Shown piece after piece: positions 47,718 to 48,517 of a DNA stretch of 64,000 nt. The stretch lies in assembly GCA_951406725.2 (NCBI GenBank), contig OX597822.1, positions 77,066,001 to 77,130,000 of the forward strand. The letters run 5' to 3'. Position numbers and translations under genes: made by a program. The notes beneath the pieces are model-generated. The model saw only the letters and a program-made list of their open reading frames with translations. It did no database searches and was not told the origin of the DNA. Position 1 is the first letter of the stretch. Each line of letters starts with the position of its first letter. The stretch is from Octopus vulgaris (Eukaryota).

Positions 47718-48515
47718 ATAACATAAGGGACTAAAGCCATCTGAATATGGCTAGGGACAGGGCAGGGTGGTGGGGGTGTTACTGTTGCATTTAGCCCCAG
47801 GCGAACATCGACGTCACCAGAAAGGCCCGACACCGTCACGGTGTCCTTAACCTGCAAAGGGAGGTAATTCCCCGATGAAGCGGAAACCACACACGGACCA
47901 TGGTACGATAGGCAATACACCTTGAAACCATGGTCCGTGTGTGGTTTCCGCTTCATCGGGGAATTACCTCCATTTGCAGGTTAAGGACACCGTGACGGTG
48001 TCGGGCCTTTCTGGTGACGTCGATGTTCGCCTGGGGCTAAATGCAACAGTAACACCCCCACCACCCTGCCCTGTCCCTAGCCATATTCAGATGGCTTTAG
48101 TCCCTTATGTTATCGAGCAGTTACTGTCTATATCTCTTTTAGAGAATTATTATTGCTTTCGAACAGATTTTCGAAATCAGCAAATATATTTTGCTTGAAA
48201 ATCTATATATGAATATCCTGCAGAGTGAGAATTCGTCGAGGAAGCGGAAGCCTACCACACGCCGACGATAGGCAATACACCTTGAAACCATGGTCCGTGT
48301 GTGGTTTCCGCTTCATCGGGGAATTACCTCCCTTTGCAGGTTAAGGACACCGTGACGGTGTCGGGCCTTTCTGGTGACGTCGATGTTCGCCTGGGGCTAA
48401 ATGCAACAGTAACACCCCCACCACCCTGCCCTGTCCCTAGCCATATTCAGATGGCTTTAGTCCCTTATGTTATCGAGCAGTTACTGTCTATATCTCTTTT
48501 AGAGAATTATTATTG

Positions 48516-48517
<2 letters not shown>
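47718..48517 (+). mobile_element. Retrozyme-like / non-autonomous PLE mini-element: inverted partial copy plus 1.7 tandem 360-nt units
   Basis: 47905-48157 equals 48265-48517 (period 360, 1 mismatch). 47718-47904 is the reverse complement of 47927-48113. The unit contains a hammerhead, and (TA)n lies on both sides. Confidence 0.85.
48231..48326 (+). ncRNA. Type I hammerhead ribozyme motif with a U4C core and long stem I
   Basis: gaagcggaagcctaccacacg-CCGACGA-T-AGG-caataca-CCT-T-GAAA-CCATGG-TC|cgtgtgtggtttccgcttc. Predicted cleavage is after C48295, with the homologous site at C47935. Confidence 0.8.

What the first reader, a model, noticed from the sequence alone, without database searches (positions are those of the whole stretch)
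47718..48517. Young 360-nt hammerhead-containing retrozyme-like element, a candidate circular-RNA replicon
SEEN: direct repeats have an exact 360-nt period (47905-48157 and 48265-48517, 1 mismatch). An inverted 187-bp copy lies in front, (TA)n flanks both sides, and there is no real coding capacity. A type I hammerhead fold at 48231-48326 has a long stem I, a palindromic CCATGG stem III and a GUC site. The unit is full of hairpins (GACACCG-tga-CGGTGTC; AGCCAT-attcag-ATGGCT; AGATTTTC/GAAAATCT enclosing AGCAAA/TTTGCT). KNOWN: non-LTR retrozymes are small tandem hammerhead repeats that yield circular RNAs; PLE pLTRs carry minimal hammerheads that cleave as dimers; PLE insertions often have an inverted 5' pLTR. 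INFERENCE: this is a recently active cephalopod family mobilised in trans by a PLE, releasing a 360-nt monomer or circle. Whether it is already described cannot be judged from here.
Basis: partly seen in the sequence, partly recalled or inferred. Interest (0 to 1): 0.85.

Follow-up and report, generated by a model that had tools for sequence, protein, structure and literature searches.

The report
Young hammerhead retrozyme with Penelope footprints
This is one of more than 500 recent, near-identical insertions of a 360-base non-coding repeat with an unusual hammerhead-ribozyme motif (self-cleavage predicted, untested); its insertion ends match the pattern Penelope-type retrotransposons leave, so it is likely copied by their enzyme, probably from a small RNA circle, which would make these animal 'retrozymes' directly testable.

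Summary
The window holds a head-to-head, two-armed insertion of a 360-nt non-coding unit in (TA)n. The family is young and dispersed: at least 518 insertion ends and 1,219 exact ribozyme motifs in the genome, arrays up to about 23 units. The type I hammerhead is non-canonical (C4 for U4 in 1,219 of 1,220 exact motifs; U·U at the base of stem II), but sister families show compensatory changes in all helices and different perfect stem-III palindromes, as expected of a dimer-acting ribozyme. Insertions end at two fixed sites 44 nt apart, one per arm (43 of 49 loci; 25 of 25 pairs on contig C1): the Penelope-like-element (PLE) 'tail' signature. Units within an insertion share one haplotype, and template-borne variants are A>G-biased on the sense strand, which favours repeated copying of a monomer RNA, likely a circle. 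Not shown: self-cleavage, any RNA, circularity, or which PLE is the partner; none of three young coding PLE families shares sequence with it. This copy has only one complete ribozyme and is probably a dead end. Verdict: a new variant of animal non-LTR retrozymes. The scan noted a similar tRNA-bearing PLE-type repeat in another genome.

The parts
47718..48517 (.). Whole two-armed (head-to-head) insertion, 800 nt
   Evidence: L001
47718..47904 (-). Inverted arm, unit positions 352-360 + 1-178 (unit numbered from the predicted cleavage site, 47936 = 1); outer end 47718 is the fixed 'short' (S) end, no tail
47905..48517 (+). Direct arm, 1.7 units (unit 330 to 360, 1-360, 1-222); outer end 48517 is the fixed 'tail' (T) end
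47936..48295 (+). 360-nt monomer between successive predicted cleavage sites; family majority unit 46% G+C; no frame open through the tandem
47905..47941 (+). 5'-truncated first hammerhead (starts at A6; lacks C3-G5 and the 5' strand of stem I)
   Evidence: sequence
48231..48326 (+). Complete type I hammerhead motif: long stem I (proximal 48256-48261 with 48296-48301), core C3-C4-G5-A6-C7-G8-A9 48262-48268, stem II 48269-48283 with U·U at 10.1/11.1, GAAA 48284-48287, C17 48295; predicted cleavage between 48295 and 48296
48287..48294 (+). 8-nt self-complementary stem III (A15.1..U16.1), predicted to pair between two units (dimer)
48474..48517 (+). 44-nt 'tail' between the two fixed 3' ends (unit 179-222); second copy at 48114-48157
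48493..48505 (+). 13-nt hairpin in the tail, conserved as a hairpin in sister families and identical at the same offset in family E; candidate RT-recognition element (inferred)
47224..47717 (.). Left (TA)n-rich target
48518..48616 (.). Right (TA)n target

Best explanation
This is a copy of a young, non-coding 360-nt tandem element that is likely a non-autonomous retrozyme copied into (TA)n by a Penelope-like element (PLE) protein, probably from a monomer RNA circle that its variant hammerhead is predicted to release. Shown from sequence: hundreds of dispersed insertions, two fixed 3' ends 44 nt apart with one on each arm, variable 5' junctions, one haplotype per insertion, and a hammerhead fold kept by compensatory changes across sister families. 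Inferred steps: (1) multi-unit arrays are transcribed; (2) two units pair through the 8-nt palindrome and cleave after GUC, slowly given C4 and U·U; (3) the monomer is ligated to a circle; (4) a PLE RT-endonuclease dimer nicks both strands of (TA)n and each end primes reverse transcription inside the RNA, one at unit position 178 and one at 222; (5) each RT runs round the unit for 0.1 to 15 turns, sometimes switching RNA; (6) the two cDNA ends are joined blunt or through 1-3 nt of microhomology. The window copy is a short product with one complete ribozyme.
For: PLE signature: 109 of 114 3' ends at 170-180 or 215-222, 100 of 114 abut (TA)n, 43 of 49 two-armed loci pair one S with one T end; on contig C1 all 25 end pairs within 10 kb are S+T and face outward. 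PMC11167929 (main text read) reports in vitro that a PLE protein cleaves and extends both strands, prefers AT-rich DNA and starts RT at two internal sites that delimit the tail; PMC8557442 passages describe the inverted 5' copy, the tail at one end and microsatellite bias. Three young coding PLE families with intact RT+GIY-YIG frames that insert in (TA)n exist in this genome. Single template: p-distance 0.0051 within loci, 0.0057 across arms, 0.0120 between loci; 0 of 500 permutations as low in the first 40 loci; 23 of 23 rare multi-unit variants occur in both arms where both cover the site; non-CpG variants shared by two or more loci are in every unit in 66 of 92 carrier loci; 32 majority haplotypes in 65 loci; three private changes in every unit sampled at L232. 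RNA stage: A>G is 15 of 38 multi-unit variants against 4 T>C, but 6 of 102 singletons against 6 T>C (Fisher p 5e-6). Ribozyme under selection: 95.3% of cells paired, 10 of 20 pairs with two-sided changes, 3-8 pair CG/UG/UA, four palindromes in families A-D, a fifth in family E; N7 varies (402 C, 817 T) while the other 14 scored core positions did not change in about 140 copies from the first 40 loci.
Against: No self-cleavage, RNA or circle was observed. The core fails the strict consensus at U4 and 10.1/11.1; PMC3088659 passages say U4C considerably lowers in vitro activity, though it supports a viroid in vivo, and that U·U occurs in active natural ribozymes. The active monomer fold is 8.8 kcal/mol above the minimum-energy fold. 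In the PLE tested in vitro, ribozyme mutants did not affect insertion and uncleaved RNA was the main substrate; in the Xenopus preprint 8 of 9 retrozyme dimers showed no cleavage. 5' ends do not pile up at the cleavage site (6 of 98 within 10 nt, about 5 expected). Some arrays are not uniform: L111 is a haplotype mosaic, L128 has three variants in 3 of 5 units, L126 and L208 are partly mixed, so conversion, later duplication or assembly error also act and could produce some of the uniformity. No coding PLE shares sequence with the unit or its tail (tail p 0.33-0.90), and tail lengths read by eye differ (43-47 nt here; about 26-41 nt in the three PLEs).
Confidence: 0.62

Rival explanations
1. 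Same PLE-driven insertion, but the template is the uncleaved linear multimer transcript of an array; the hammerhead is slow, protein-dependent or used at another step, and no monomer circle is needed.
For: PMC11167929: uncleaved RNA is the dominant substrate in vitro. Variant core. No excess of 5' ends at the cleavage site. Variants shared by the two arms at the same depth (e.g. L194, L210) fit two primers on one unit of a multimer. Mosaic arrays L111, L128.
Against: Multimer copying alone cannot fix a new variant in every unit or lengthen arrays, yet variants are fixed across 6-11 units (L136, L208) in 32 haplotypes, so a monomer bottleneck or strong homogenisation must recur. The core and palindrome keep covarying across families.
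Confidence: 0.22
2. The template is the cleaved linear monomer, and tandem arrays arise by end-to-end template jumping of the RT between monomers rather than by rolling on a circle.
For: L022 joins 1.6 units of this family to 2.1 units of family E with 2 nt of microhomology, so RT likely does switch RNAs; mosaic L111.
Against: The 360/1 junction is exact in nearly all crossings listed (L114 and L211 are exceptions); the L022 switch is internal (E position 121), not end to end; most arrays keep one haplotype although 32 circulate.
Confidence: 0.09
3. The unit is only the pseudo-LTR of an unfound coding PLE, and the arrays are its 5'-truncated copies.
For: All end features are those of PLE pLTRs. 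Only 66 loci plus two 1.9-kb pieces of an estimated 500-700 were read; 150 of 6,136 GIY-YIG candidates and 60 of 29,376 protein candidates were scored.
Against: After the tail the sequence returns to the same 360-nt unit, up to 15 times per arm; no PLE frame is contiguous with it in 66 loci (the two nearby PLEs, L188 and L206, are separate insertions); the two long S-T spans tested were pure arrays; four sister families share the same closed 350-360-nt plan.
Confidence: 0.04
4. A DNA-level satellite or minisatellite spread by unequal crossing-over, conversion or extrachromosomal DNA circles, with a fossil ribozyme.
For: Some within-array duplication is visible (L128); wrap-around contigs in public runs cannot be told from tandem DNA.
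Against: Fixed 3' ends, variable 5' ends, S/T exclusivity and (TA)n targeting, a 13-nt target duplication at L132, strand-asymmetric A>G variants and ribozyme covariation.
Confidence: 0.03

Closest known systems
Animal non-LTR retrozymes (Cervera & de la Pena 2020, PMC7229834, results and discussion read; Li, Clavereau & Pollet 2026 preprint 10.64898/2026.07.22.740005, main text read)
   Same: Non-coding tandem units of 350-390 nt in a mollusc (mussel), type I hammerhead once per unit, G+C under 50%, no LTR/PBS/PPT, co-occurrence with PLEs; the axolotl Amex2 ribozyme also has U·U at the base of stem II and works better as a dimer.
   Different: C4 core fixed family-wide and a 6-nt palindrome in stem III, so a CUGANGA descriptor would miss it and Rfam does (Rfam also misses canonical-core sisters). 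Mostly short dispersed two-armed inverted insertions with two fixed ends, which the parts of these papers that I read do not describe. No homologous coding PLE found, whereas 24 of 57 Xenopus families had Repbase matches. Cleavage and circles untested here.
Endonuclease-containing Penelope-like elements and their pLTRs (PMC8557442 and PMC3846280 passages; PMC11167929 main text; PMC4209133 results and discussion)
   Same: Inverted 5' copy, tail on one end only, two internal RT start sites, AT-rich or microsatellite target, palindromic stem III.
   Different: No ORF; tail 43-47 nt rather than 30-40; long canonical-type stem I with a bulge rather than the minimal hammerhead of PLE pLTRs; the unit closes on itself.
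Schistosome and newt hammerhead satellites (as described in PMC7229834 and PMC6765202 passages)
   Same: Tandem ribozyme-bearing repeats of about 330 nt with weak or palindromic stem III.
   Different: Here the repeats are mainly dispersed fresh insertions with PLE-type ends; no promoter was tested.

Membership tests
Non-LTR retrozyme | Short (about 150-450 nt) tandem genomic repeat, multi-copy | tested here: met
   360-nt unit, arrays of 1 to about 23 units, 518 S ends and 436 T ends genome-wide
Non-LTR retrozyme | Non-coding, no LTR/PBS/PPT, G+C under 50% | tested here: met
   Stops in all six frames; 46% G+C; no terminal direct repeats other than the tandem unit; PBS/PPT judged by eye only
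Non-LTR retrozyme | Type I hammerhead fold in every unit | tested here: met
   Stems I-III and G5, A6, A9, G12-A14, A15.1, U16.1, C17 present; covariation across sister families
Non-LTR retrozyme | Canonical core C3-U4-G5-A6-N7-G8-A9 with a paired 10.1-11.1 | tested here: not met
   C4 in 1,219 exact motifs against 1 with U4; U·U at 10.1/11.1; both are known natural variants
Non-LTR retrozyme | Self-cleavage as monomer or dimer | not testable with these tools
   Folding only
Non-LTR retrozyme | Expressed as monomeric linear and circular RNA | tested here: inconclusive
   No run on record as RNA; contigs cannot separate circle from tandem DNA
Non-LTR retrozyme | Target-site duplication longer than 4 bp when present | tested here: met
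   13 nt at L132, 9 nt at L209, the only 2 of 65 loci with a non-TA duplication; about 10-12 nt by eye in sister families
Autonomous Penelope-like element | ORF with RT and GIY-YIG endonuclease | tested here: not met
   No frame in the unit; none contiguous in 66 loci or two long arrays
PLE-mobilised element (works like) | Two fixed 3' ends delimiting a tail present on one end; inverted 5' copy; AT-rich target | tested here: met
PLE-mobilised element (works like) | Sequence shared with the pLTR of a coding PLE | tested here: not met
   No match to coding PLE sequence in 68 PLE-bearing or candidate loci, tails not significantly alike; search incomplete

The most novel reading that the evidence does not exclude
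A set of at least five small RNA replicons in one animal genome, each with its own palindromic stem III that lets it cleave only with its own kind, circulate as 350-362-nt circles; a PLE dimer binds one circle, primes one target strand at each of two sites and rolls, so that every insertion is a DNA record of a single RNA molecule, including A-to-G changes made at the RNA stage (possibly host A-to-I editing written back into the genome) and switches between different circles.
Probability: 0.3. Interest if true: 0.78.

Novelty: new variant of a known kind. Interest (0 to 1): 0.55.

Why it matters
The retrozyme papers propose, but in the parts I read do not show, that PLE enzymes mobilise these RNAs and that the circle is the template. 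This family gives dated genomic footprints for both: one of two fixed RT start sites on each arm links retrozyme insertion to the in vitro PLE mechanism and suggests a division of labour in a PLE dimer, and one haplotype per array points to a monomer template. It also supplies a natural series of hammerhead core variants (C4; U3·G8; U3-A8; U·U, C·A, G·U, G-C at 10.1/11.1) that consensus searches miss, so retrozyme counts may be underestimates. A 360-nt RNA and three intact candidate enzymes make the open questions testable at the bench.

Tried and rejected
Rfam: no hammerhead match in the region or in two canonical-core sister copies; uninformative. Expression: no RNA holder listed among 24 runs. 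Laying four runs gave a contig that wraps round the unit in each (X1 391 nt, X5 and X18 390 nt, X19 359 nt); RNA status of X1 and X5 is a guess and contigs cannot separate circle from tandem DNA, so this is not used as evidence. In X18 and X19 (other organism labels) N7 is T and C4 is kept. Partner search: GIY-YIG profile, a related PLE protein, 68 loci compared by blastn, tail alignments and two long S-T spans found no coding PLE sharing sequence. A possible resemblance of the tail to the PLE-1 tail was rejected (p 0.33-0.90). A pile-up of 5' ends at the cleavage site was looked for and not found. Pure fold-back copying of one arm from the other was considered: inner ends are mostly far apart and L111, L126, L133 are not mirror images, though L208 has a mirrored patch at its centre. 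An ADAR neighbour preference was not seen; 10 of the 15 A>G sites are in predicted A-U pairs, so selection for G·U wobble or RT error explains the bias equally well. A loose 13-letter pattern was mis-designed and uninformative, except that its list exposed family E. Not obtained: the Lunse et al. paper on PLE hammerhead variants (not held; seen only as a citation), the supplement of PMC7229834 (unreadable), one of the supplement files of PMC4209133, the preprint's supplements, and Repbase/Dfam.

Full report
1. Observation. The coordinates hold. A 253-nt direct repeat with period 360 and one mismatch, a 187-nt inverted arm and (TA)n flanks are present. Numbering the unit from the predicted cleavage site (47936 = 1), the insertion is head-to-head: a minus arm that ends at unit position 178 and a plus arm of 1.7 units that ends at 222. 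All six frames of the tandem unit have stops. The hammerhead at 48231-48326 has stems I-III and a GUC site, but its core is C3-C4-G5-A6-C7-G8-A9 with U·U at 10.1/11.1, and the first repeat starts at A6, so only one ribozyme in this copy is complete. Rfam finds no hammerhead here or in two canonical-core relatives.

2. The family. A DNA search of the genome (2.8 Gb, 227 contigs) scored 40 of 915 candidates and returned 215 matches; the 150 listed were 93-100% identical, on many contigs. Exact pattern counts are whole: 402 motifs with C7, 817 with T7, 1 with U4 (it sits at the inversion junction of an older copy), controls 0. Junctions with (TA)n number 436 at the 222 ('tail', T) end and 518 at the 178 ('short', S) end. 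Contig C1 has 36 T and 44 S ends in 55 loci, which scales to roughly 680 loci (my extrapolation; exact matches only). Arrays reach about 23 units over 8.3 kb.

3. Architecture. I read 66 loci: 40 (biased to resemble the window copy), 25 more from the list (completing contigs C1-C3 for that motif, plus one on C4) and the U4 locus. One degraded locus (L196) was dropped, leaving 65, all but one of the C7 subfamily. The T7 subfamily was sampled only by two 1.9-kb pieces. Of 65 loci 49 are two-armed. Of 114 3' ends, 109 fall at 170-180 or 215-222 and 100 abut (TA)n; 43 of 49 two-armed loci pair one S with one T end, one pairs S with S, five have an atypical end. The unbiased check agrees: all 25 end pairs within 10 kb on C1 are S+T and face outward. 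Inner junctions are blunt or overlap by 1-3 nt in 33 of 49. Target duplications outside pure TA were seen at 2 of 65 loci (13 and 9 nt). This is the PLE pattern: an inverted 5' copy, a tail on one end, microsatellite bias (PMC8557442 passages; PMC3846280 passages). PMC11167929 (main text) shows in vitro that a PLE protein, predicted to be a dimer, cuts and extends both strands of AT-rich DNA and starts RT at two internal sites that delimit the tail. One site per arm is the genomic counterpart, and suggests (inference) that each subunit serves one strand and one site.

4. Template. Segments under 95% identity and 25 nt at inner ends were left out of the variant counts. Units differ by 0.0051 within a locus, 0.0057 across arms and 0.0120 between loci (308 segments); 0 of 500 label permutations were as low in the first 40 loci. 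Rare multi-unit variants are in both arms in 23 of 23 cases where both cover the site. Non-CpG variants shared by several loci are fixed in 66, partial in 5 and single in 21 of 92 carriers; locus-private variants are single in 74, partial in 11, fixed in 7; there are 32 majority haplotypes in 65 loci. Multi-unit variants are strand-biased (A>G 15 of 38, T>C 4), singletons are not (6 and 6 of 102, CpG-dominated); the polarity of two of the 15 is uncertain, and editing, RT error and selection for G·U wobble are not separated. These data say that each insertion comes from one RNA haplotype and that new haplotypes are repeatedly expanded from one unit, which a circle does most simply. Against: L111, L128, L126 and L208 are partly mixed; 5' ends show no excess at the cleavage site (6 of 98); 104 of 114 arms cross that site, though the loci were chosen to contain the motif; polishing of the assembly could blur or homogenise arrays. 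L022 fuses this family to family E internally with 2 nt of microhomology, likely a template switch, implying shared machinery.

5. Ribozyme. Sister families B, C and D (350-360-nt units, same tail) and a more distant family E (360-362 nt) provide comparison. On 18 intact copies of A-D that I picked, my structure has 95.3% of cells paired and two-sided changes at 10 of 20 pairs, above all 500 shuffles and all slid controls (the sequences are related, so this is not a probability). The 3-8 pair reads C-G, U·G or U-A; stem III is a different perfect palindrome in each family, strongly self-pairing (-7 to -11 kcal/mol) and weak across families. The active monomer fold costs 8.8 kcal/mol, so a dimer is the likely active form, as for axolotl and PLE hammerheads. 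C4 cores recur in other hammerhead families of this genome, including the pLTR of a coding PLE that also has U·U and some family D copies. PMC3088659 passages record U4C as weak in vitro but viable in a viroid and U·U in active natural ribozymes. Selection on the fold is well supported; activity of this variant is not shown.

6. Partner. Three young coding PLE families were found: a 781-residue RT+GIY-YIG frame (14 copies, mean distance 0.011; its CX4CX2C linker fits the Neptune motif quoted), a second with 99.5% protein identity between two copies and a 784-residue family. All insert at (TA)n and show optional tails, but none shares sequence with the unit. The search was partial (150 of 6,136 and 60 of 29,376 candidates scored).

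7. Known or new. The class is known: PMC7229834 (results and discussion) and the 2026 preprint (main text). I found no description of a cephalopod retrozyme, or of S/T two-armed retrozyme insertions, in searches or in passages of PMC7761336 and PMC6962438 (which only counts 235 Rfam hammerhead matches in giant squid). Repbase, Dfam, the preprint's supplements and the supplement of PMC7229834 could not be seen and may list it. Because the canonical core test fails and cleavage and circles are untested, I file it as a variant that works like a non-LTR retrozyme rather than a proven member.

8. Verdict. Real, young, very likely PLE-mobilised (about 0.95), probably with an active dimeric ribozyme (about 0.75) and a monomer-circle template (about 0.65); joint best explanation 0.62. 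Interest 0.55.

Noticed in passing
window about 15250-16240, minus strand: 3' part of the young 781-residue PLE family with an inverted 5' piece, tail and (TA)n flanks; its pLTR carries a minimal hammerhead-like motif with a U3-A8 core and ACATGT palindrome.
   Followed up: partly
window about 3760-3845, minus strand: Another hammerhead-like element with a canonical CUGAUGA core in a roughly 500-nt insertion between TA repeats; a relative lies in L123.
   Followed up: no
window about 24995-25976, minus strand: Decayed PLE RT/endonuclease fragments.
   Followed up: no
window 2736-3321, 4845-5727, 17878-18248: Tandem arrays of a 184-bp repeat (2-4.8 copies), a SINE-like element that also forms head-to-tail arrays.
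   Followed up: no
L213, L214 (G000:C1:8132500-8137000; C1:2662300-2667800): Family E: separate young 360-362-nt tandem hammerhead element (U3-A8 core, ACGCGT palindrome), ends at 178 and 236/237, sharing only a 13-nt tail hairpin with family A at the same offset.
   Followed up: partly
L022:631-2067: Chimeric insertion: family A arm joined internally to 2.1 units of family E, likely an RT template switch.
   Followed up: partly
L081-L110, L137-L186: Older sister families B (2,621 first-look candidates, about 10% diverged from the query copy), D and C with the same tail and different cores and palindromes.
   Followed up: yes
L064, L068, L227: The 781- and 784-residue PLE families carry an upstream overlapping frame of about 446-479 residues with no convincing Pfam match in the one scanned: two-ORF PLEs.
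   Followed up: no
L035, L067, L073, L096, L019: Several further hammerhead-like families in this genome have CCGANGA cores, so U4C recurs and would be missed by CUGANGA descriptors.
   Followed up: partly
L188:2913-5040: A family A insertion lies in the same TA run as the tail end of a young PLE-2 copy; shared target preference or chance.
   Followed up: no
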